A stretch of 53,065 bases of DNA from Oscillospiraceae bacterium (lineage in GTDB: Bacteria > Bacillota > Clostridia > Oscillospirales > UBA929): assembly GCA_031546715.1 (NCBI GenBank), contig JAVBKA010000086.1, positions 1-53,065 on the forward strand, written 5' to 3'. The notes under the pieces are model-generated. The model had not been told where the DNA came from. It saw only the letters and a list, made by a program, of their open reading frames with translations, and ran no database searches. The position numbers were made by a program, and so were the translations under genes. This document shows, in pieces, positions 42,504 to 52,611 of the stretch (its first letter is position 1; the number at the start of each line of letters is the position of its first letter).

Positions 42504-42911
42504 TTACAGTTTTATTTCAAACTCAAGACCGGCCGGAAGATCAAGGCTCATCAGCGCTTCCATTGTTTTTTGTGAAGGCTTGATAATATCGATGATTCTC
42601 TTGTGGGTGCGGCGCTCGAATTGTTCGCGGCTATCTTTATACTTATGAACTGCACTGAGAATTGTTATGATTTCCTTTTTTGTCGGAAGGGGAATAGGAC
42701 CTGAAACTCTTGCGCCTGTGCGCTTTGCTGTTTCGACGATGCGCTCTGCGCTTTGGTCGATAAGCTGATGGTCATATGCCTTCAGGCGAATACGGATAAC
42801 TTCTTTCATTTTAGGAGCTGCTGCAGGTGCTGCTGCCTTTGGGGCTACAGGCTTTGTTTCAACTGTTTTGGTTGCCTTTGATTCTTTTTGAGTTGTTTCG
42901 GTTGTTGCCAT
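42504..42911 (-). CDS. rpsJ: 30S ribosomal protein S10 with ~34-aa Lys/Ala/Pro/Thr-rich N-terminal extension
   Basis: Canonical S10 runs from [10 protein letters not shown] onward. A strong AAGGAGG lies 9 nt before the ATG at 42911, and there is no SD before the internal Met. The track ORF start at 43073 is spurious. Confidence 0.85.
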
Positions 42912-43238
42912 GTTTTGCTTCCTCCTTAATATGCTCGGTGAAATCTTTACCGCCTTGCCGTGTGTGTCGCCAAACTTCATAAATTTTGCCGGAACTGACA
43001 AAACTCGTTTTGCCAAAGTTTCCGGCTGACAGAGGCTTAAAATATCTCTCCCGGCCGCCCGATTAACGGACATACTCCACCGAAGTGACCAAATGCCAGA
43101 TGTTCACTGCCCCAGTATAACAAGGACAAGACGAGCCTTGCTAATCAAATTAGCCGCTCAAAGATGAACTCCCAGATTTGCAATCTACGGTTTCATTGCA
43201 TTTTTGCGCACAAATATCCTGTTAGATAAAAATGGCAC
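42912..43238 (-). promoter_or_regulatory. long (~325 nt) 5' leader of the S10 operon
   Basis: Region between the predicted promoter and the rpsJ SD. It contains strong hairpins, for example GCCGGAA...TTCCGGC nested with CAAAAC/GTTTTG around 42984-43025. Confidence 0.45.
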
Positions 43239-43244
43239 TTGATG

Positions 43245-43273
43245 ATAATATCAGTCAAGTGCCCAAATGTCAA
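43245..43273 (-). promoter_or_regulatory. putative S10 operon promoter
   Basis: On the - strand TTGACA (43273-43268), 17-nt spacer, TATTAT (43250-43245), with an A/T-rich UP-like tract upstream. Confidence 0.6.
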
Positions 43274-43302
43274 GAGTTTTTATAAAATTTTTCTGGTTTT
43301 TT
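43268..43302. repeat. left copy of 35-nt direct repeat flanking the AT-rich islet
   Basis: TGTCAAGAGTTTTTATAAAATTTTTCTGGTTTTTT compared with 46681-46715: 32/35 identical by manual alignment. Confidence 0.8.
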
Positions 43303-43409
43303 TTGATGACACACCTCTGAATATAACTTAAACAAAAAAAATTGAGTTACTGCAGTCCGATTGTCGATTGAACTTAAGCTGTGTATTCGCTTAAAAATTT
43401 GGTTATCTG

Positions 43410-43438
43410 ACAAAAAATCACAGCCAAAAACTGTAATC
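43410..43438 (-). terminator. terminator of the islet operon
   Basis: On the - strand GATTACAG-tttttgg-CTGTGATT (8 bp including two G-U pairs) followed by TTTTTG, 16 nt after the stop of the 399-aa ORF. Confidence 0.55.
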
Positions 43439-43453
43439 ACTTTGAAATTACCT

Positions 43454-44653
43454 TTATTCACATATTTCTTTTGACAATTTACAAATTGATTCACGTGCTT
43501 CTGCAAGTTCTATGACATTCGCACTTACAGAAAATCTGGTTTTATGCAAGGTAGTGTAAAAATTAGTTAAGTCATTAATATGTGATAAGACAAACTTCGT
43601 AAGCAAAAATTTATTTGCTTCTATTGCATGAATTGTTTGCGCGTTACCTTTTTGCAAAGATGTAAAAAAATAATGAACTGAAAGAAATACTTTCAGTAAC
43701 TTGTTTAACTTAACTTTCAAATCTGGCCAGACACTGTCGGTTTGAAATAGCTTTGCAGTTGTTATTAATTCGGTTATTTCAATAATATCATGAGCCACAT
43801 ATGTATAAGTGTTTTGACTATTTGCACAAACACTAAAATCTATTTTTAGTGTTTGTGCAACACTGCGTAATTCACAATCAATGTCTTTAAGAGACTCAGA
43901 GTACTTTGTTACATTGTTGCCTAAAAAACACTCTTGTTCTAAAATTGTTTGTAAGGCAATTCCTCTTAGATGAGACATTTTTGCAACGCTCTTAGCCACT
44001 GGCACAGTTCCTAAAGAAACATCTCCAAACAAATTTAAAACATTTATTATCTCTTTGCAGGTCTTAGTGGCACATAGCCGTAACCATTTATCTCTATTAT
44101 TGCTTTGCCATCTAACAATAATCTGCATATATAAAAAGAACTTAATCAAATCTTTTTTATGTAGGGCTATCATTGCAAAAAAGGAAATAATTATTAAAGA
44201 AAGCATTCGAGAATCAATATGCACTTCTTCAACTTCTTCAACTTTTTCAATTGAACACAATAACCTTGGTGCATAAACGCAATTATTATATTCAACAATC
44301 AATCTTGTGCATGCGTGGAGAGGTTCTGGCAAACGAAAGCAATATCTAACTTTAAGAATGCTATCGTCTTCTGGAAGACTTTCAGAAATTCTTTCAGAAT
44401 TTTTATTATCATATGATGCAATTTTAGTTATATTTATCAAGCTATCATTCGAAATTTTTTCATTTTTTCCAAATGCTTTGTAAGCCTCTATAATTACTGA
44501 TATCAACTGCATATCAATATTGTAATTACCCGTATTTTTATCATACAAACAATTTTTAAACTCTTTAAACTCATCCTTCGCCAATAAGCAATTATATACT
44601 TCAAAAATACAATAATTAATCATATTGCGCATTAATTCACCAGCTTTATCCAA
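43454..44653 (-). CDS. hypothetical helical protein, partner of the PRTase-like protein
   Basis: 399-codon ORF that begins immediately after the upstream TAA (TTG 44653, or ATG 44632). A/T-rich codons. I recognise no motif. Confidence 0.6.
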   Translation of the reverse strand: MDKAGELMRNMINYCIFEVYNCLLAKDEFKEFKNCLYDKNTGNYNIDMQLISVIIEAYKAFGKNEKISNDSLINITKIASYDNKNSERISESLPEDDSILKVRYCFRLPEPLHACTRLIVEYNNCVYAPRLLCSIEKVEEVEEVHIDSRMLSLIIISFFAMIALHKKDLIKFFLYMQIIVRWQSNNRDKWLRLCATKTCKEIINVLNLFGDVSLGTVPVAKSVAKMSHLRGIALQTILEQECFLGNNVTKYSESLKDIDCELRSVAQTLKIDFSVCANSQNTYTYVAHDIIEITELITTAKLFQTDSVWPDLKVKLNKLLKVFLSVHYFFTSLQKGNAQTIHAIEANKFLLTKFVLSHINDLTNFYTTLHKTRFSVSANVIELAEARESICKLSKEICE

Positions 44654-46486
44654 TTAATTTATCTCTCGTTTATTGATATAGTCGTCAACAAATTCTTGCG
44701 CCTTACAATAATTGTTAAACAATTGTTTATCTTCCTCTATACGTTCACAAAAACTCCTATACTCACCAACACCAAGTGCCTTCCATAGACTCAAAACATC
44801 ACTGATACTCTTGGCATTCTGAGTCCAACTACAAAGTTTCTGAATCATTGAACATGGTTCAGAAATTTGAGCGTTAAGAAAACATTCAGTAAAGGCTGTA
44901 ACATTTCTTTTCAAGTTTTCTAAAGTCCCTGATAAAAGGGCGTATCGAAATATGGCAAAATAATAAACGGGAGCATGCCTCACTGATGAAACATATCCCT
45001 CCCCTGCATAGGCGTCTTTGACAATATACGGCGTATTCTCTCGATAATGTATAGACGCAGAATAAGATGCCCCAGACCTGAGTGTAGTACGCAGTGAAGC
45101 CAATCCGATTGCACTTTTCAGTGCTCTATTATTTCTACATGGAAGTACGTGCAGTTTGAAAAAACTAATCAAATGAATTTTGGGCTTTCCAGCAACTTCA
45201 GTGTTGACCGTTTCTAAAACACGTTTCTCAACAGGAAATAGCATCGATTCAATCTCTTGTTCAATCTCTTGTTCAATCTCTTGCTCAATCTCTTGTTTTT
45301 TGCAAAATTCTGTTAATGGTTTATCTAGCGAAGCCACATTAGCGATATCATTCAACGTAATTTCGTCTATGCCGATAGAATTTTCCTCAAAACTAAAAAA
45401 AGTGCACAAATCGATTGAATGATTATAAAACAATTTCAACTCCGTGCTCAGTTCATTTGGAAAATGGTAAGCTTCATATTCAACATCAAATTGAAACAGG
45501 TCTTGTAAGCACGGCACATCGCTGAACAATCGCTTAGCAACGCGCAATGATAACATATATGCCAATATCTTATGAATTAGCAAAGTTGATTTTTGACTAA
45601 TCAGTTGGTCGTTCAGCAAGCATCGAAAATGAACAAGGGAAAGACAGCTTTCTTCTTCCACGTAGGACAAAAGATTCAATAAACTTTTGCGAGCACGCTC
45701 AAAACTAACTGCGGAAAATATGGAGACCGGAATCAATCTAACATTAAATATATTTTCTTCGCAAAAATACGTTACTCGTATCCCCTCAAATAGCATGTTA
45801 GGCATTTGATTTTCAGATATACTATGAATAATAAAGGAGTTTTCTGCGACATAATCATTGGAAATTGGTATATGGAACTTTTCACATTTCCATGTTTGTT
45901 CATCTATGGTCATGTTGATGGAAGTAAGCTTATCAAACTGCTCTTTTGTCATAGAAGCGCGATAAACAGGCAAATCCATTGAAAAAGGAAGTGATAACGC
46001 ATGAGTTAGCTTCATTGTACGAATTGTAAAATCATGTAAATCAACCTCTGGAACTATACTTGAACAAGTCAATGGTGCGGGAAGTTGGATTAAAGGATTA
46101 AACACGTTACTTACAAGCATAACTGCTGGGGTAATATTCTTAATACCACGTTCCTGTAAAATCATGCATATATCTTTTAAGTGCTTTCCTGTTGACACGG
46201 TGTCGTCTATAACTGTAAAATTCAAATTGACCAAGTGTGTCCAGTCAGTAATTTTATCAATGTACCTGTCACTAAAAACTATAGCATTATTATCTTTTAT
46301 ATACCCACACGACAATGCGATCAAGTATAGGCAAAACCCTTTTCGGGACATAAAAACAAACACATCATGCTCAGTTGCCTTAGCAAAAAGCTGTTTGAAA
46401 AAATCTCTGACCGACTCCGCATAGTCACTGCCTAAAAAACTTCTGAGTAATTCTTCTGACGTAGTTTTTGAAAAATATCCGCTCAT
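44654..46486 (-). CDS. large protein with N-terminal phosphoribosyltransferase-like domain and unknown ~480-aa C-terminal region
   Basis: FTVIDDTVSTGKH resembles the type I PRTase PRPP-binding signature (hydrophobic strand, DD, xxSTG). It is preceded by VFVFMSRKGF, a strand-loop segment consistent with the PRTase fold. AGAGGTG lies 5 nt before the ATG at 46486. Confidence 0.6.
   Translation of the reverse strand: MSGYFSKTTSEELLRSFLGSDYAESVRDFFKQLFAKATEHDVFVFMSRKGFCLYLIALSCGYIKDNNAIVFSDRYIDKITDWTHLVNLNFTVIDDTVSTGKHLKDICMILQERGIKNITPAVMLVSNVFNPLIQLPAPLTCSSIVPEVDLHDFTIRTMKLTHALSLPFSMDLPVYRASMTKEQFDKLTSINMTIDEQTWKCEKFHIPISNDYVAENSFIIHSISENQMPNMLFEGIRVTYFCEENIFNVRLIPVSIFSAVSFERARKSLLNLLSYVEEESCLSLVHFRCLLNDQLISQKSTLLIHKILAYMLSLRVAKRLFSDVPCLQDLFQFDVEYEAYHFPNELSTELKLFYNHSIDLCTFFSFEENSIGIDEITLNDIANVASLDKPLTEFCKKQEIEQEIEQEIEQEIESMLFPVEKRVLETVNTEVAGKPKIHLISFFKLHVLPCRNNRALKSAIGLASLRTTLRSGASYSASIHYRENTPYIVKDAYAGEGYVSSVRHAPVYYFAIFRYALLSGTLENLKRNVTAFTECFLNAQISEPCSMIQKLCSWTQNAKSISDVLSLWKALGVGEYRSFCERIEEDKQLFNNYCKAQEFVDDYINKREIN
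45248..45295 (-). repeat. 4 x 12-bp in-frame tandem repeat (QEIE)4
   Basis: On the + strand TTCAATCTCTTG occurs three times plus one variant (CTCAATCTCTTG). Confidence 0.9.
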
Positions 46487-46526
46487 AAATGCACCTCTGA
46501 TATTTTGTGAGTACAATTGGCTTCCA

Positions 46527-46589
46527 TTTCATCTTATGCTGGAAAGCACACAAAGATGAAACACAAACCACCGCACATTGCTGTGCGGT
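46527..46589 (-). promoter_or_regulatory. structured 5' leader of the islet operon (two hairpins)
   Basis: Hairpin ACCGCACA-ttgc-TGTGCGGT (46570-46589) and a 9-bp perfect stem TTTCATCTT...AAGATGAAA (46527-46561), both between the promoter and the SD. Confidence 0.45.
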
Positions 46590-46657
46590 CTATCGTATAA
46601 ATCGGAATTCGCCAAGGCACGACTGGAATAATACAAAATCCCTATTAGTACTATAAT

Positions 46658-46686
46658 AGTATAGTACTCAAACGTCCATTTGTCAA
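46658..46686 (-). promoter_or_regulatory. putative promoter of the islet operon
   Basis: On the - strand TTGACA (46686-46681), 17-nt spacer, TATACT (46663-46658). The palindrome AGTACTATA-atag-TATAGTACT (46647-46668) overlaps the -10. Confidence 0.6.
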
Positions 46687-46715
46687 TAGTTTTTATTAAA
46701 TTTTTCTTGTTTTTT
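46681..46715. repeat. right copy of 35-nt direct repeat flanking the AT-rich islet
   Basis: TGTCAATAGTTTTTATTAAATTTTTCTTGTTTTTT compared with 43268-43302: 32/35 identical. Confidence 0.8.
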
Positions 46716-46735
46716 CCCAATTCCCTCTATCATCG

Positions 46736-48604
46736 TCAATCCTCGTCTGACCGCACAGCCTTTTCTTTATAGAAAAATCTAGCAAGCAAAATAGTGCCCG
46801 CATTAAAAAATGCGTCAACAGCTACTGCCGCAACAGGAGGCAAAATGCCCGTCAAAACTCCTGCCAGACTGACTGCCTTCGCTGAGGCGGCAATAATCAG
46901 CACTGTTTTTGACAGTTTCACTGTCTGCACAGACTGGGACATGGCATTTATCAGCGGGGAAAACTTTGGAGACAGTGACGCTATATCGGTTCTTACAGGT
47001 TCGCCCAGTGCACCTATGACCGCCGTTACGGTAGCCGTGGTTAGGAGTGCGTGACTGTCGTTGGGTTTGCCTATGAACAGCGTTCCTCCACTGTTGGATG
47101 TTTCCGTTACCAGTTCCTTGAGTACTCGAATTTTGTCCGCCGGTTGGAGGTTTACATGGATATCCGAGATGCCCAGACGGTTGGCAAGTGTTTGGGTTGC
47201 GGTGATGGCGTCGCCTGTAATCATGGCGATATCAGTACCCATGCTGCAAAAAAACTGCACAGCTTCATTTGCCCCAGGGCGCATAGCGTCTGACATCATA
47301 AAGCAGCCTAAATATGTATTGTCAAGGGCTAGGTAAACGATGTTGCCTGGTTTTTCGTCTACTGTAATGCCCGCCTGTGTCAAAAATCTTGCTGAGCCTG
47401 CGTGTATGGTCTGCGATGAAAACTTTGCCACAACGCCCAAGCCCGGCTTTTCCTTAAAGGATTCCGGCGGATATCCCACGTCGCCGCAGTATTCACGGAT
47501 TGCTGTACCGATACGGCTGGTGCTTGGGTGCTGAGATATTGCGGCACAGCGGAGAAATGTCGCCCTGTCAATGCCCTTTGCAAGCTCTATGCCTACTACT
47601 GAGTAGTTGTGCTCAGTCAAAACACCGTTTTTATCGAATACCGTAAGCTTAGTTTTTGCAAGGTTTTCAACCACCTTGCCGTTGCGGATAATAACTCCCT
47701 GTCGCGCCGCTTCACTGGCGTTGAGCTTAAAGAACGTACCAATAGAAACGCTTACAGGCTTAACGGCTGCCAATAGCAACACCCCAACCGCCCTCGGCAG
47801 CCACAGTGCAAGCTCTGACTTAAATACAAATGGTATCACCACGCATACAATCGCGGCGACTAACATACCCAAGGCGATAAAAAGCTCAACGCCTTTGGGA
47901 AGAGACTGTAATTTTGAACCGTCCACCGCTGAATTGACACATTTTTCAAGCTCAATAGCAGGTGTGTCGTTCATAGGTTCAGCTTTAAGTGCCAGCAAGC
48001 CGTCAAAGTTACGAGTTCCCGCAATCAAAAAGTCACCCTCTTGAACGGAAATGCGTTCCTTGTCAGCTCCAAGCAGTTCGTAAGAGATTTCGCTGTTGCC
48101 CTTCATTATCAGCCCGTCTACAGGCACAATGCCGTCTGGCGGGACAATAAGCGCGTCTCCGTCCTTAACCTCAGTTCTCGGAACTTCGATGACTTGTTTT
48201 TTTCTAAAAACATGAGCCATTGTCGGTCTGGGGTCAAGTCCGTGATAACAAACCTTTGCAGAGGCCGCCTCTTGATAACGCTGTAAAAACAGCATTCCCT
48301 GCCAAATAAACACCGCCGCTACGCCCAGCCACGGAGTTTTTGTCGCCAAAGCGGCAAATGCGCCAAGCATCAGCAATATTTCAAAATAGGGGACGCCCTT
48401 TTTCCCTTTTCCAAAGGCCTCGATTAATAAATCCGCGGATATTATAAGCATCGAAAAAGCAAATAACGCTATGGAAACTCCGATAGGCGTAAAAAACCCT
48501 ATCCCAAAGGCGACTAAAGCTAGTACGGCTTTAGCGTAAAACAACGTACCGCTGCGTAATTTTAGAAACTGAAAAACAGCAGACAAACGCTTTTGCTCCT
48601 TCAT
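46736..48604 (-). CDS. P1B-type (heavy-metal) P-type ATPase-like membrane protein with degenerate catalytic motifs
   Basis: 622 aa. FDKNGVLTE replaces DKTGTLTE, MITGDAITA is retained, GKPNDSHAL replaces GDGINDAPAL, there is no TGES (GADK instead) and no CPC (KPV instead). Confidence 0.65.
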   Translation of the reverse strand: MKEQKRLSAVFQFLKLRSGTLFYAKAVLALVAFGIGFFTPIGVSIALFAFSMLIISADLLIEAFGKGKKGVPYFEILLMLGAFAALATKTPWLGVAAVFIWQGMLFLQRYQEAASAKVCYHGLDPRPTMAHVFRKKQVIEVPRTEVKDGDALIVPPDGIVPVDGLIMKGNSEISYELLGADKERISVQEGDFLIAGTRNFDGLLALKAEPMNDTPAIELEKCVNSAVDGSKLQSLPKGVELFIALGMLVAAIVCVVIPFVFKSELALWLPRAVGVLLLAAVKPVSVSIGTFFKLNASEAARQGVIIRNGKVVENLAKTKLTVFDKNGVLTEHNYSVVGIELAKGIDRATFLRCAAISQHPSTSRIGTAIREYCGDVGYPPESFKEKPGLGVVAKFSSQTIHAGSARFLTQAGITVDEKPGNIVYLALDNTYLGCFMMSDAMRPGANEAVQFFCSMGTDIAMITGDAITATQTLANRLGISDIHVNLQPADKIRVLKELVTETSNSGGTLFIGKPNDSHALLTTATVTAVIGALGEPVRTDIASLSPKFSPLINAMSQSVQTVKLSKTVLIIAASAKAVSLAGVLTGILPPVAAVAVDAFFNAGTILLARFFYKEKAVRSDED

Positions 48605-50583: not shown

Positions 50584-50731
50584 GTGGGGGTCTAGCCCTC
50601 GCACTGGTAATTTTGCGGTACAATTGGGTATTATTGGAGTATTTTATAAAAATAAATTTGATTTTAGACGCTATTTCAATTATAATCTTTACATTCAGCG
50701 GTACGCCCGTATACAGCTTAGGAGAAGGTAC

Positions 50732-51292
50732 ATGTCAAAAATTTTATCTTACGGAAAACACGCTCTGTTTTATCTGTTTTTAGCCGCCTATGTTCTCTTA
50801 CTGGCTCAAATATTAATATTTAAAAATGTTTCACCTCAAGATATTCTAAGCGCAGATAGATATATTTACAGAACCTTTAACTTTATTCCGTTTAAGTCCA
50901 TAATAGGGTATTTTCACGGTAAAAATATATGGATTTCCTTAATGAACGTCGTTGGTAACATCGTAATTTTTGTGCCGTTAGGGATATATTTTCAGATTTT
51001 TTGCCGTAATAAAAAAATCTTGAGCAGCGTCTTGCTAGTATTTGCTTTTAGCCTATTTGTAGAAGTCGCCCAAGGCTTCTTAGCAATCGGAGCAACCGAT
51101 GTTGACGATGTTATTTTAAACACCTTGGGCGGTGCTGTTGGCGTACTTATTTATAAATTTTTATTTTCGGTGCTGAAGGACGAAAATAAAGCTAGAACGG
51201 CAACGACTGTTGTTTTTGGCGTTGTGTGTCTGTGCGCTTTGGCTTTCGTGGGTATTGTCAGGGCGTCTGGGTTGATGATTCGGTTTTTGTAG
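50732..51292 (+). CDS. VanZ family membrane protein
   Basis: Contains NFIPFKS, NIVIFVPLG and EVAQ...G.TDVDDVILNTLGG, typical of VanZ. AGGAGAAGG lies before the ATG at 50732. Confidence 0.75.
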   Translation: MSKILSYGKHALFYLFLAAYVLLLAQILIFKNVSPQDILSADRYIYRTFNFIPFKSIIGYFHGKNIWISLMNVVGNIVIFVPLGIYFQIFCRNKKILSSVLLVFAFSLFVEVAQGFLAIGATDVDDVILNTLGGAVGVLIYKFLFSVLKDENKARTATTVVFGVVCLCALAFVGIVRASGLMIRFL

Positions 51293-51406
51293 TTGTTGGT
51301 GGTGTGGGGATTATTTTCTAACATTAACGAATTATTTGAGGAAGTTTAAATCACTGGTAAAGTGCGTGCGCTTTATCGCTTTGCCGTGACATTATGAGGT
51401 ACGTAT

Positions 51407-51958
51407 ATGCATTTACTCTACGACACCTTCTGCAAAAAAATACGATGGTATTACATTGCGGCACTATATATTCTTCAAATGGCTATATTTCAAGTTATGA
51501 TGCGAGTTATTTTCCCCGTGGTTGAGAAAAATTTAGGGGATTATCATGTTCTTGATATGGTAAAGCAAGGTTATAACAGCGAGTATGTTGCAAAGCTTCT
51601 CTCTCTGATGGACGAAGCATCAAAAAATATGTATTTGCATGTACAAATGCCCCTTGATTTCTTATATCCGGTGATTATGGCTGGGGTTTTCTTCTTGATT
51701 TTCGCAAAAACATGGCGTAAGCCTTGGTATGTGTGCTGTGTCCTGCCCTTATTACTGATTATCTTTGACTGGACAGAAAATGTGTGTATTCTGCTGCTCT
51801 TTTCCGATAATCTTATTTCCGAAAGAATTGTAAAAATCAGTAGCTTTTGCACACAGGCAAAGTCAATTGTCGGCGACTATGTGTTGTATTATCTTGCGAT
51901 TCTCTCCATCGGGGTATCGGTTATGAGGTTTGTTATCCGAAGATATAAGCGCAGTTGA
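51407..51958 (+). CDS. hypothetical membrane protein
   Basis: 183 aa with about 5 hydrophobic helices. No motif recognised. Confidence 0.55.
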   Translation: MHLLYDTFCKKIRWYYIAALYILQMAIFQVMMRVIFPVVEKNLGDYHVLDMVKQGYNSEYVAKLLSLMDEASKNMYLHVQMPLDFLYPVIMAGVFFLIFAKTWRKPWYVCCVLPLLLIIFDWTENVCILLLFSDNLISERIVKISSFCTQAKSIVGDYVLYYLAILSIGVSVMRFVIRRYKRS

Positions 51959-52033
51959 TGGTGTGGGGGTGTTGCCCGATTGACCTGTTATTTTATGAAT
52001 GTATCAAATAAATGATGACAAGGAGAAGTTATC

Positions 52034-52558
52034 ATGAACAATTTACCGCAAAGAAAACACGTTCGATTAAAAAATTACGATTACGGCGACAATGGCGCAT
52101 ATTTTATAACGTTCTGCATTAAAGATAGGCACGAATTGTTAGGCGCGCTTGTTGTAGGGAACGGCGTCCTCGACGTTCCGAAGGTTGAGTTATCTGAACT
52201 TGGAGAGATTGTTGAAAAGCAAATTATTGAGCTGGATAATCATTATGACCATGTGGATATTAATAAATACATCATTATGCCTAATCATGTGCATATGATT
52301 GTGATTGTGAAAGACCAAAAAAGCGGTGTGTCGGGGACGCAGAGCGGTGTGTCGGGGACGCCACACCCTACAAATGCGGTTATTCCATCGTTACTTTCTA
52401 CGCTTAAACGGTTCACAAATAAAAGAATTGGTTATTCAATATGGCAATCCTCTTACCATGATCATATTATCCGTGACGAATTAGATTACCAAAACCATTG
52501 GCAATACATTGACGAAAACCCGGCTAAATGGGCAGCAGATAAATATTATGAAGGTTGA
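52034..52558 (+). CDS. IS200/IS605-type Y1 (HUH) transposase-like protein, RayT-like
   Basis: 174 aa with the HUH motif MPNHVHMIV and the catalytic-Tyr region WQSSYHDHIIRDE, a single-domain size. AAGGAGAAG SD. Confidence 0.8.
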   Translation: MNNLPQRKHVRLKNYDYGDNGAYFITFCIKDRHELLGALVVGNGVLDVPKVELSELGEIVEKQIIELDNHYDHVDINKYIIMPNHVHMIVIVKDQKSGVSGTQSGVSGTPHPTNAVIPSLLSTLKRFTNKRIGYSIWQSSYHDHIIRDELDYQNHWQYIDENPAKWAADKYYEG

Positions 52559-52611
52559 AGAAATGTCGTTGCTGTTATATTGACATCAAGCGGATAAGTG
52601 AAAAATGCAGA

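What the first reader, a model, noticed from the sequence alone, without database searches (positions are those of the whole stretch)
43268..46716. AT-rich two-gene islet inserted at the S10 ribosomal operon promoter: candidate undescribed defence / toxin-antitoxin-like system
Between a GC-normal ATPase-like gene and the S10 operon, composition drops abruptly. By eye some 60-nt lines fall to about 20% G+C, against roughly half in both flanks, and codons are A/T3-rich. The segment is a self-contained cassette. It has a consensus promoter with a palindrome over the -10, a structured leader, two abutting ORFs (TAA directly followed by TTG) and its own terminator. There is no recombinase gene. One product carries a PRTase-like domain and the other is unrecognisable to me. 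Foreign composition, tight two-gene coupling, a nucleotide-metabolising enzyme domain and autoregulation-like promoter architecture are together typical of anti-phage or abortive-infection modules. PRTase domains are known in some defence contexts (ShosTA toxin, some retron effectors), but there is no DprA-like or reverse-transcriptase partner here.
Basis: partly seen in the sequence, partly recalled or inferred. Interest (0 to 1): 0.88.

Follow-up and report, generated by a model that had tools for sequence, protein, structure and literature searches.

The report
Foreign PRTase two-gene cassette at rpsJ promoter
A 3.4-kb AT-rich piece of foreign DNA, bracketed by two copies of the ribosomal S10 operon promoter, carries a rare 610-residue phosphoribosyltransferase-fusion protein and an orphan partner gene; relatives of the first gene sit next to predicted immune effectors, so it is a credible but untested candidate anti-phage or toxin-like module.

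Summary
On the minus strand, an AT-rich cassette lies between a P-type ATPase gene and rpsJ. Its GC is 0.34 against 0.47 for the rest of the window, and GC3 is 0.33 and 0.24 against about 0.5. It has a near-consensus promoter, a structured leader and two tightly linked genes, A (610 aa) and B (392 aa). There is no recombinase. The claimed terminator is weak.

New here: the cassette is bracketed by a 55-nt imperfect direct repeat, which is a duplicated rpsJ promoter.

A has an HGPRT-like PRTase domain, shown by family profile and by an AlphaFold model (pLDDT 86). About 450 further residues have no known fold match. A belongs to a rare family: 55 hits among 1.84 billion cluster representatives, named only "hypothetical protein" where named. 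Every member examined is followed by a tightly linked partner gene whose type varies. In six distinct loci the partner is an HD-CE ("conflict effector") plus HSP90-like ATPase protein. B has one detectable homologue, located beside A's closest relative.

A defence or toxin-like role is therefore supported only by association. It is neither ShosTA nor a retron. I rate it a new variant of the defence-type PRTase effector theme, untested experimentally.

The parts
46661..46715 (-). Upstream copy of the 55-nt direct repeat. It is a duplicate of the rpsJ promoter (A/T-rich UP-like element, -35 TTGACA at 46686-46681, spacer, -10 TATACT at 46663-46658) and serves as the cassette promoter.
46647..46668 (.). 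Perfect 9-bp inverted repeat AGTACTATA-CTAT-TATAGTACT overlapping the -10 hexamer of the cassette promoter.
   Evidence: Read directly
46487..46657 (-). Structured 5' leader. It includes a G+C-rich hairpin with a U-rich tail (46589-46570) and an adjacent long hairpin that overlaps the U tract, so it may act as an attenuator. No Rfam family matches.
44654..46486 (-). Gene A, 610 aa. It has an N-terminal type I (HGPRT-like) PRTase domain (about residues 20-165) with an RKGF PPi-type loop and a VIDDTVSTG PRPP loop. This is followed by a beta-rich domain (about 175-260) and a helical C-terminal region containing a conserved G-E-[NG]-S hairpin. The mechanical ORF starts at TTG 46516.
45248..45295 (-). 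Four 12-nt tandem units encoding (EIEQ)4, in a low-confidence linker of protein A (residues about 387-396).
43454..44632 (-). Gene B, 392 aa, with no family, fold or solved-structure match. Its one detectable homologue is the gene downstream of A's closest relative. GGTGA lies 4 nt before the ATG. The alternative start, TTG 44653, abuts the TAA of A.
43410..43438 (-). Weak AU-rich hairpin (10 pairs, 2 of them G-C) followed by U6. This is the only terminator-like element after gene B, so read-through towards rpsJ is likely.
43248..43302 (-). Downstream copy of the direct repeat, which is the native rpsJ promoter (TTGACA 43273-43268, TATTAT 43250-43245). It has its own inverted repeat, GGCACTTGA/TCAAGTGCC (43263-43234), around the -10.
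43055..43204 (-). S10-Clostridia ribosomal leader (RF03136), matched below the gathering score (22.2 bits against 35.1). It is native and not part of the cassette.
42504..42917 (-). rpsJ (S10), the first gene of the S10 operon. It marks the right border of the insertion context.
46736..48604 (-). P-type ATPase gene of normal composition. It marks the left border of the insertion context.

Best explanation
The segment is a horizontally acquired, immobilised two-gene cassette. It is inserted immediately upstream of the rpsJ promoter and is bracketed by two diverged copies of that promoter. It is therefore transcribed from a ribosomal-type promoter through a hairpin-rich, possibly attenuating leader, while the S10 operon keeps its own promoter copy.

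I propose that it encodes a nucleotide-targeting conflict module, meaning an anti-phage, abortive-infection or toxin-like system. Protein A would be the effector. Its HGPRT-like PRTase domain retains both the PPi loop and the PRPP/ribose-5-phosphate loop. When activated it would act on purine nucleotides or PRPP, either cleaving or transferring at the N-glycosidic bond or draining PRPP, and so collapse or distort the nucleotide pool. The roughly 450-residue C-terminal scaffold of A would dock the product of the downstream gene. Protein B would be the lineage-specific partner, acting as sensor, switch or immunity subunit, that keeps A silent until a trigger appears.

Shown here: foreign composition, promoter duplication, the PRTase fold and motifs, the invariable linkage of the A family to a variable downstream partner, and the HD-CE/HSP90-like partner in sister branches.

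Inferred: enzymatic activity, substrate, physical A-B interaction, the trigger, and any defence phenotype.
For: Foreignness:
- GC is 0.338 against 0.467, and GC3 is 0.33 and 0.24 against about 0.5.
- None of 53 related rpsJ loci has a comparable GC drop upstream of rpsJ.
- None of 80 related loci encodes an A or B homologue.

Insertion signature:
- A 55-nt direct repeat at 80% identity with 3413-nt spacing.
- The 35-nt core has 3 mismatches and appeared in 0 of 100 shuffles.
- The local alignment scores 56, against a shuffled maximum of 32.
- The downstream copy sits at the distance from the S10 core typical of relatives.

PRTase domain:
- The family profile hits PurF, HGPRT and PRPP synthetase PRPP loops.
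- The family consensus scores 29.9 bits on PF00156, above the cut-off of 26.3.
- The AlphaFold2 model has pLDDT 85.6 and pTM 0.87.
- Its N-terminal roughly 150 residues match HGPRT structures at Foldseek probability 1.0.
- D94 is nearly invariant and D95 invariant, and R48, S72, D73, R74 and K78 are nearly invariant.

Family and context:
- 55 hits among 1.84 billion cluster representatives, mostly about 600 aa and matching over most of their length.
- In every context read, a same-strand gene follows within about 110 nt, in some cases overlapping.
- Partner type tracks the A subfamily: B-like; 297 aa; 396 aa; 367 aa; about 1085 aa HD-CE (128-159 bits) plus HSP90-like ATPase; or 211 aa followed by an HD-CE/HSP90-like protein.
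- 'CE' stands for conflict effector (PMC12871103).
- A PADLOC DRT-associated gene (RTas1808, 2.8e-52) lies next to one locus, and the HD-CE partner resembles the C-terminal part of RT_UG24.
- IS elements and polysaccharide-locus variable regions flank others.

Precedent: defence PRTases are known, including ShosT, retron III-A effectors, PsyrT and Ophion OpnC (PMC11961720 abstract).
Against: - Neither A nor B hits any PADLOC, Pfam, NCBIfam or PHROG model directly.
- Pfam PRTase-CE is matched only weakly, by 2 of 34 relatives.
- No known defence genes flank the islet in this window. The neighbours are ribosomal, an aminotransferase, an NYN protein and an ATPase.
- The defence link is guilt by association through distant relatives (16-21% identity to A).
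- The B-type pairing is seen in only two loci.
- No empty site could be found to prove the insertion.
Confidence: 0.45

Rival explanations
1. Toxin-antitoxin or addiction module of a decayed mobile element. A would be a PRTase toxin, as ShosT is, and B its cognate antitoxin. The pair would persist because losing it is lethal, with no dedicated anti-phage role.
For: - The genes form a tight pair, with the putative toxin first and the partner 21 nt downstream.
- The same 'toxin' family pairs with unrelated partners, which resembles the mix-and-match seen in TA systems.
- The islet is foreign, has att-like direct repeats and lacks an integrase.
- ShosT is a PRTase toxin that disrupts purine metabolism (PMC11961720 abstract).
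Against: - The proteins are far larger than typical TA components.
- In sister branches the partner is a roughly 1085-aa HD-CE plus HSP90-like ATPase, which is an implausible antitoxin.
- B has no DNA-binding or DprA-like domain.
- Family members match the ShosT model only over the roughly 50-residue PRPP loop.
Confidence: 0.2
2. A cellular function unrelated to conflict. A would be a purine-salvage or PRPP-sensing regulatory protein, for example a PyrR-like PRTase-fold RNA-binding attenuator acting on its own hairpin-rich leader. B would be an accessory factor. The pair would have been acquired horizontally as a niche metabolic or regulatory trait.
For: - The closest structural matches are housekeeping HGPRTs.
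- PyrR appears among the weak profile hits, at E 0.05-0.2.
- The leader has a terminator-like hairpin next to an alternative hairpin.
- No defence model is hit.
Against: - The family is extremely sparse and patchy: 55 hits in 1.84 billion representatives, in clusters of 1-3 members.
- The partner is variable.
- Sister branches are linked to HD-CE/HSP90-like conflict-type proteins, IS elements and a DRT-associated gene.
- The composition is foreign.
- The leader is not conserved with the closest relative's locus.
Confidence: 0.12
3. Decaying or functionless foreign DNA, with ORFs that are no longer expressed or selected.
For: - B is almost an orphan, with only one distant homologue.
- Composition has not drifted towards that of the host.
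- One relative, in Sporofaciens musculi, has a split A-like gene.
Against: - Uninterrupted ORFs of 610 and 392 codons in 30-36% GC DNA are very unlikely without selection.
- A keeps all the family's near-invariant residues.
- With the family alignment, A folds confidently.
- The promoter, the Shine-Dalgarno sites and the leader are intact.
Confidence: 0.08

Closest known systems
PRTase-CE / HD-CE nucleotide-targeting 'conflict effector' systems with HSP90-like modules (Pfam PF24390 and PF24391; Nicastro, Burroughs, Iyer and Aravind, NAR 2023. The paper is not held in the library, so its content is cited from memory and through PMC12871103.)
   Same: - A's family is a PRTase-domain protein encoded directly upstream of an HD-CE plus HSP90-like ATPase protein in six distinct loci.
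- The predicted logic is the same: effectors that attack free nucleotides at glycosidic or phosphate bonds.
- Both are rare, patchy and located in variable regions.
   Different: - A itself does not hit PF24390, and only 2 of 34 relatives do so, weakly.
- The window's partner B has no HD-CE or HSP90-like domain and is unrelated to those partners.
- A's roughly 450-residue C-terminal scaffold has no annotated family.
- These systems are computational predictions, not validated for this family.
ShosTA (PRTase toxin ShosT plus DprA-like ShosA)
   Same: Both are two-gene modules with a PRTase-domain protein encoded first. ShosT perturbs purine metabolism (PMC11961720). The PRPP-loop similarity is detectable in 9 of 34 relatives.
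   Different: - The ShosT model has 237 positions and matches only about 50 residues, the PRPP loop, in relatives. It does not match A at all.
- B has no DprA-like domain.
- A is 610 aa with extra domains.
Retron type III-A PRTase effectors (for example Retron-Eco11)
   Same: Both have a defence-type PRTase-like effector domain. Three relatives give weak PRTase_III-A hits.
   Different: The cassette has no reverse transcriptase and no retron ncRNA. A itself gives no hit.
Housekeeping 6-oxopurine PRTases (HGPRT/HPRT)
   Same: These are the best structural matches for residues about 20-165. The LKG/RKG-type PPi loop and the acidic-DD...TG PRPP loop are conserved, which I read from the alignments using established type I PRTase motifs.
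   Different: Sequence identity is only 10-18%. A carries a 450-residue extension, has foreign composition and an obligatory variable partner gene, and its family distribution is extremely sparse.
Integrase-less genomic islets flanked by att-like direct repeats (cis-mobilisable-element-like remnants)
   Same: A 55-nt direct repeat lies at both borders, the composition is foreign, and the cassette is inserted without disrupting the adjacent operon.
   Different: The repeat is only 80% identical and is itself a functional promoter. No integrase, excisionase or transfer gene is present. No empty site has been observed.

Membership tests
Type I phosphoribosyltransferase fold (PF00156) | PRPP-binding loop (hydrophobic stretch, two acidic residues, then T/S-G) within a Rossmann-like core | tested here: met
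   A carries the motif VIDDTVSTG. The family consensus scores 29.9 bits against a cut-off of 26.3. The family profile hits PurF and HGPRT PRPP loops. Foldseek gives probability 1.0 to HGPRTs. A on its own gives no Pfam hit.
Type I phosphoribosyltransferase fold (PF00156) | Catalytic activity on PRPP or nucleotides | not testable with these tools
   Needs an enzyme assay.
ShosTA | ShosT-type PRTase toxin matching the ShosT model over its length | tested here: not met
   A gives no PADLOC hit at E<=1. Relatives match only model positions about 158-227 of 237.
ShosTA | DprA-like antitoxin ShosA encoded downstream | tested here: not met
   B has no Pfam, PADLOC or NCBIfam hit.
Retron type III-A | Reverse transcriptase plus msr/msd ncRNA adjacent to the PRTase effector | tested here: not met
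   The islet contains only two substantial ORFs. Rfam gives no retron RNA.
PRTase-CE (PF24390) | Match to the PRTase-CE profile | tested here: not met
   A and the family consensus give no hit at E<=1. Two of 34 relatives hit it, with a best E-value of 6e-4.
PRTase + HD-CE/HSP90-like conflict system | Adjacent gene encoding an HD-CE domain fused to an HSP90-like ATPase | tested here: not met
   This is met in six distinct relatives' loci but not in the window. B shows no similarity to those proteins.
Anti-phage defence system (generic) | Protection against phage on expression; enrichment next to known defence genes | not testable with these tools
   Only anecdotal context is available: RTas1808 next to L085 and IS elements in L088. 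No statistical enrichment could be computed and no phenotype measured.
Type II/IV toxin-antitoxin | Toxicity of one product that is neutralised by the other | not testable with these tools
   Needs expression experiments. The protein sizes (610 and 392 aa) are atypical.
Integrated genomic islet | Flanking direct repeats and deviant composition | tested here: met
Integrated genomic islet | Own integrase or recombinase; an empty site in related strains | tested here: inconclusive
   The islet has no recombinase ORF. The empty-site searches found nothing usable. Relatives are too distant and are not syntenic upstream.

The most novel reading that the evidence does not exclude
The roughly 600-residue PRTase-scaffold family defines a previously uncharacterised class of modular immune systems. 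In it, one conserved HGPRT-like nucleotide-pool effector is wired, through its novel C-terminal scaffold, to interchangeable partner proteins. The window's A-B pair would be a new two-gene member whose partner B is a novel sensor or regulator fold. It would be installed under a copied ribosomal-protein promoter, with an attenuating leader, so that it is expressed in step with growth.
Probability: 0.3. Interest if true: 0.75.

Novelty: new variant of a known kind. Interest (0 to 1): 0.55.

Why it matters
If it is functional, the cassette would add a new architecture to the small set of PRTase-based immune effectors (ShosT, retron III-A, PsyrT, OpnC). That architecture has a large uncharacterised scaffold and swappable partners, including an HD-CE/HSP90-like protein. 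It would give an experimentally tractable entry into how nucleotide-pool effectors are kept silent and then triggered. The way it is installed is also instructive: foreign DNA has duplicated the S10 operon promoter, so the cassette gains a strong growth-coupled promoter while the essential operon stays intact. The family is so rare, mostly singletons from SRA assemblies, that homology-based defence finders miss it.

Tried and rejected
- Direct family searches of A and B against Pfam, NCBIfam, PHROGs and PADLOC gave no hits.
- The word-indexed homologue search found nothing for A and only the query itself for B. The profile version also found nothing, probably because of the candidate cap.
- phmmer of A and B against PDB sequences gave nothing. 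The profile built from B and its one homologue also gave nothing.
- Single-sequence AlphaFold of A failed, with pLDDT 34. That used one of the two jobs, so B could not be modelled.
- Foldseek of the good A model against PDB and BFVD matched only the PRTase domain.
- tblastn of A and B against phage and plasmid collections gave no match.
- Pattern-based locus searches with the A plus P0002 alignment found nothing in GTDB genomes, IMG/VR or JGI metagenomes.
- hhalign of B against the HD-CE/HSP90 partners and against all other partner types showed no relationship.
- The search for an empty site or a second strain gave little. The exact L4 protein found one 4.6-kb contig that ends inside the S10 leader, the exact ATPase is not on record, and the promoter 31-mer is absent from JGI metagenomes.
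- The leader is not conserved with the closest relative's locus, and that locus's upstream 92-aa gene has no counterpart in the window.
- Nicastro et al. 2023 (PMC10681802) is not held in the library.
- I considered B as a membrane effector and rejected it. It has only one marginal hydrophobic segment, which is not conserved in its homologue.

Full report
**1. What is at the coordinates**

Every gene in this part of the window is on the minus strand. In the direction of transcription the order is:
- a P-type ATPase gene (48604-46736; E1-E2_ATPase and HAD hydrolase domains);
- the AT-rich segment;
- rpsJ (ATG 42917; Ribosomal_S10, E 7e-35), followed by rplC, rplD, rplW and rplB.

The compositional break is sharp. 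Windows of 300 nt drop from 0.45-0.53 GC to 0.27-0.39 between about 43100 and 46850. The module is 0.338 GC against 0.467 for the rest of the window. GC3 is 0.329 for gene A and 0.237 for gene B, against 0.46-0.56 for neighbouring genes, and the lowest 60-nt line is 20% GC.

**2. Anatomy of the cassette**

- *Promoter.* A near-consensus sigma-70-type promoter, TTGACA-17-TATACT, lies at 46686-46658 (11 of 12 matches). A perfect 9-bp inverted repeat (46668-46647) overlaps its -10.
- *Leader.* The roughly 170-nt leader folds better than shuffled controls (z = -3.2). It contains a G+C-rich hairpin with a U-rich tail (46589-46570), followed immediately by a longer hairpin that overlaps the U tract. 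This geometry would suit attenuation, but no Rfam family matches it.
- *Gene A.* It most likely starts at ATG 46486. AGAGGTG lies 5 nt upstream, and this start matches the N-termini of the homologues. The product is 610 aa.
- *Gene B.* It most likely starts at ATG 44632. GGTGA lies 4 nt upstream, and this start matches the N-terminus of its one homologue. The product is 392 aa, after a 21-nt spacer. The 'TAA directly followed by TTG' junction is the mechanical ORF boundary and remains a possible alternative start.
- *After B.* There is only a weak AU-rich hairpin plus U6 (about 43438-43410). The region is not significantly structured (z = 0.2), and the terminator scan found nothing there.
- *Recombinase.* The islet has no recombinase-like ORF.

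**3.

- A 55-nt direct repeat lies at 46661-46715 and 43248-43302, 80% identical and 3413 nt apart.
- Its 35-nt core (AAAAAACnAGAAAAATTTnATAAAAACTnTTGACA) occurs exactly twice in the window with at most 3 mismatches, and never in 100 shuffles.
- The local alignment scores 56, against a shuffled mean of 20 and maximum of 32.
- The repeat covers the A/T-rich UP-like element, the -35 and part of the spacer.
- The downstream copy (TTGACA-17-TATTAT, 43273-43245) is followed by a sub-threshold S10-Clostridia leader (RF03136, 22 bits). It sits at the distance from the S10 core, about 305-360 nt, at which relatives carry their promoter. It is therefore the native promoter, and the cassette is driven by a diverged duplicate.
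- The native promoter also has an inverted repeat around its -10, with a different sequence (43263-43234). The 'autoregulation-like palindrome' is thus not specific to the cassette.
- I read this as an insertion signature, either an att-like duplication or recombination at promoter homology, that leaves the essential operon's promoter intact. That reading is an inference.

**4. Is it foreign, and is it absent from relatives?**

S10 places the host among Oscillospiraceae-like Clostridia, with a best identity of 89%. None of the 80 related rpsJ loci encodes a homologue of A, B or the ATPase within 10 kb. None of the 53 loci with enough upstream sequence shows a comparable GC drop: the largest is -0.056, against -0.13 here. 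The relatives are distant, and the region upstream of rpsJ is not syntenic.

A true empty site could not be found. The only other contig from this organism (L099, 100% identical over the leader) ends 57 nt downstream of the promoter's -10. The other searches were negative.

**5. Protein A**

Direct searches gave nothing. An exhaustive HMMER scan of 1.84 billion cluster representatives found 55 proteins at E<=1e-3. Most are about 600 aa. The best hit, P0002, is 36% identical over its full length, and the rest are 15-21% identical.

The alignment shows motifs conserved along the whole length: RKGF, SDRY..K, V(D)D..TG, IPY..ELP and G-E-N-S.

Evidence for the PRTase domain:
- The family profile hits the PRPP loops of PurF, HGPRT and PRPP synthetase.
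- The family consensus passes Pfam's cut-off for Pribosyltran, at 29.9 bits against 26.3.
- With the family alignment, AlphaFold2 gives a confident model (pLDDT 85.6, pTM 0.87).
- Its first roughly 150 residues match HGPRT structures at Foldseek probability 1.0.

The remainder comprises a beta-rich domain at about 175-260 and a helical region with a conserved beta-hairpin at 473-494. It matches nothing in PDB or BFVD. By comparison with established type I PRTase motifs, RKGF corresponds to the PPi loop (LKG or LRG in HGPRTs) and VIDDTVSTG to the PRPP loop. The domain therefore looks catalytically competent, which is an inference.

Hits to defence-type PRTase models (ShosT, PRTase_III-A, Pfam PRTase-CE) occur only in some relatives, are weak, and are confined to the PRPP loop.

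**6. Genomic context of the A family**

In every context retrieved, the A-like gene is followed on the same strand, within about 110 nt and in some cases overlapping, by a partner gene whose type depends on the A subfamily.

| Loci | Partner downstream of the A-like gene |
|---|---|
| Window; L082 (P0002) | B-type, 392 and 423 aa; 25% identical, blastp E 2e-5 |
| L083, L090, L091 | 297 aa |
| L084 | 396 aa |
| L086, L092-L094 | 367 aa |
| L085, L087-L089, L096, L097 | about 1085 aa: N-terminal HD-CE (PF24391, 128-140 bits; L085, L087 and L097 scanned) plus weak HSP90-like HATPase in L085 and L087 |
| L095, L098 | 207-211 aa, then an HD-CE/HSP90-like protein |

The partner families show no detectable similarity to one another.

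'CE' stands for 'conflict effector' (PMC12871103, citing Nicastro et al. 2023). From memory, that paper also describes HSP90-like modules coupled to nucleotide-targeting effectors, but I could not read it.

Other context points the same way:
- A PADLOC DRT-associated gene (RTas1808, 2.8e-52) lies directly upstream of the L085 gene.
- The HD-CE partner resembles the C-terminal part of RT_UG24.
- IS66 and rve transposases flank L088, and several loci sit at the edges of polysaccharide gene clusters.

Where a source names a family member, the name is 'hypothetical protein', and the clusters have 1-3 members. The GTDB hits are all Lachnospiraceae. No member was found in the phage or plasmid collections or in IMG/VR.

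**7. Protein B**

B has no family, defence-model or solved-structure match. It has no phage or plasmid homologue. It has no convincing transmembrane segment: one marginal hydrophobic stretch is not conserved in its homologue. It is unrelated to the HD-CE/HSP90 proteins. Its only homologue is the gene downstream of A's closest relative, so the A-B pairing is conserved where it can be tested, but that is only two loci.

**8. Interpretation**

The best-supported reading is a horizontally acquired two-gene nucleotide-targeting conflict module. A would be the PRTase effector, whose large scaffold docks the product of the co-evolving downstream gene. B would be a lineage-specific sensor, switch or immunity partner. 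Transcription would come from a copied ribosomal-type promoter, damped by a hairpin-rich leader.

The evidence is architectural and associative. Enzymatic activity, substrate, interaction, trigger and phenotype are all inferred. My confidence is about 0.45.

The rivals are:
- an addiction-type toxin-antitoxin pair of a decayed element (0.2);
- a non-conflict salvage or PyrR-like regulatory protein (0.12);
- functionless foreign DNA (0.08).

**9. Comparison with known systems**

- It is not ShosTA: there is no ShosT-length match and no DprA-like partner.
- It is not a retron: there is no RT and no ncRNA.
- It does not pass the Pfam PRTase-CE model, and the window copy lacks the HD-CE/HSP90 partner that characterises its sister branches.
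- It works like the defence-type PRTase effectors and belongs to the same broad theme as the predicted PRTase/HD-CE nucleotide-targeting systems.

I therefore rate it a new variant of a known kind, with an orphan partner and an unusual mode of installation at the rpsJ promoter. My interest score is 0.55. It is a well-defined, testable candidate, but it has no phenotype yet, and part of the family was probably already predicted in silico.

Noticed in passing
window 43822-43860: A perfect 17-bp inverted repeat with a 5-nt loop (TTGCACAAACACTAAAA / TTTTAGTGTTTGTGCAA) lies inside the coding sequence of gene B. Rfam flagged it only as a chance-level miRNA-like hit (E 0.37). Its role is unknown.
   Followed up: no
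window 50600-52560 (+ strand): A second AT-rich stretch (GC 0.32-0.42) carries a VanZ-like gene (50624-51292, PF04892, 2e-27) and two ORFs of 183 and 174 aa with no Pfam hit. GC3 is 0.38-0.44. This may be another acquired segment.
   Followed up: partly
window 42815-42917: S10 has an N-terminal extension of about 35 residues rich in Ala, Pro, Lys and Thr ([34 protein letters not shown]) ahead of the conserved core. Most relatives align only from residue about 37 onward.
   Followed up: no
window 45248-45295: Four 12-nt tandem units encode (EIEQ)4 in a low-confidence linker of protein A. The tract could vary in length between strains.
   Followed up: no
L085 7095-7931: The gene directly upstream of an A-family gene matches the PADLOC model RTas1808 (DRT-associated; 2.8e-52, full length). 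It also matches the Pfam ADP-ribosyltransferase exoenzyme family weakly (E 1e-3). No reverse transcriptase was seen next to it among the called genes.
   Followed up: partly
L098 9989-11853 (Sporofaciens musculi WCA-9-b2): The A-like gene is split into two ORFs of 312 and 299 aa. This could be a frameshift or a pseudogene. It is still followed by a 207-aa gene and an HD-CE/HSP90-like gene.
   Followed up: no
L099 1-330 (Logan SRR23967706): A second sample holds the same organism, 100% identical over the S10 leader and rpsJ. Its contig ends 57 nt downstream of the rpsJ promoter's -10. That would fit an assembly break at the duplicated promoter or AT-rich islet, or a polymorphism there.
   Followed up: partly
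window 46736-48604: The P-type ATPase (622 aa) next to the islet has no close homologue among the GTDB species representatives. The best is 27% identity over 78 residues, and it is absent upstream of rpsJ in all 80 related loci. The left flank is therefore itself not conserved.
   Followed up: partly
window 43234-43263 and 46647-46668: Both promoter copies carry an inverted repeat around the -10. The sequences and registers differ, so the palindromic character is kept although the sequence diverged. It could be an operator or a cruciform, or it could be coincidence.
   Followed up: no
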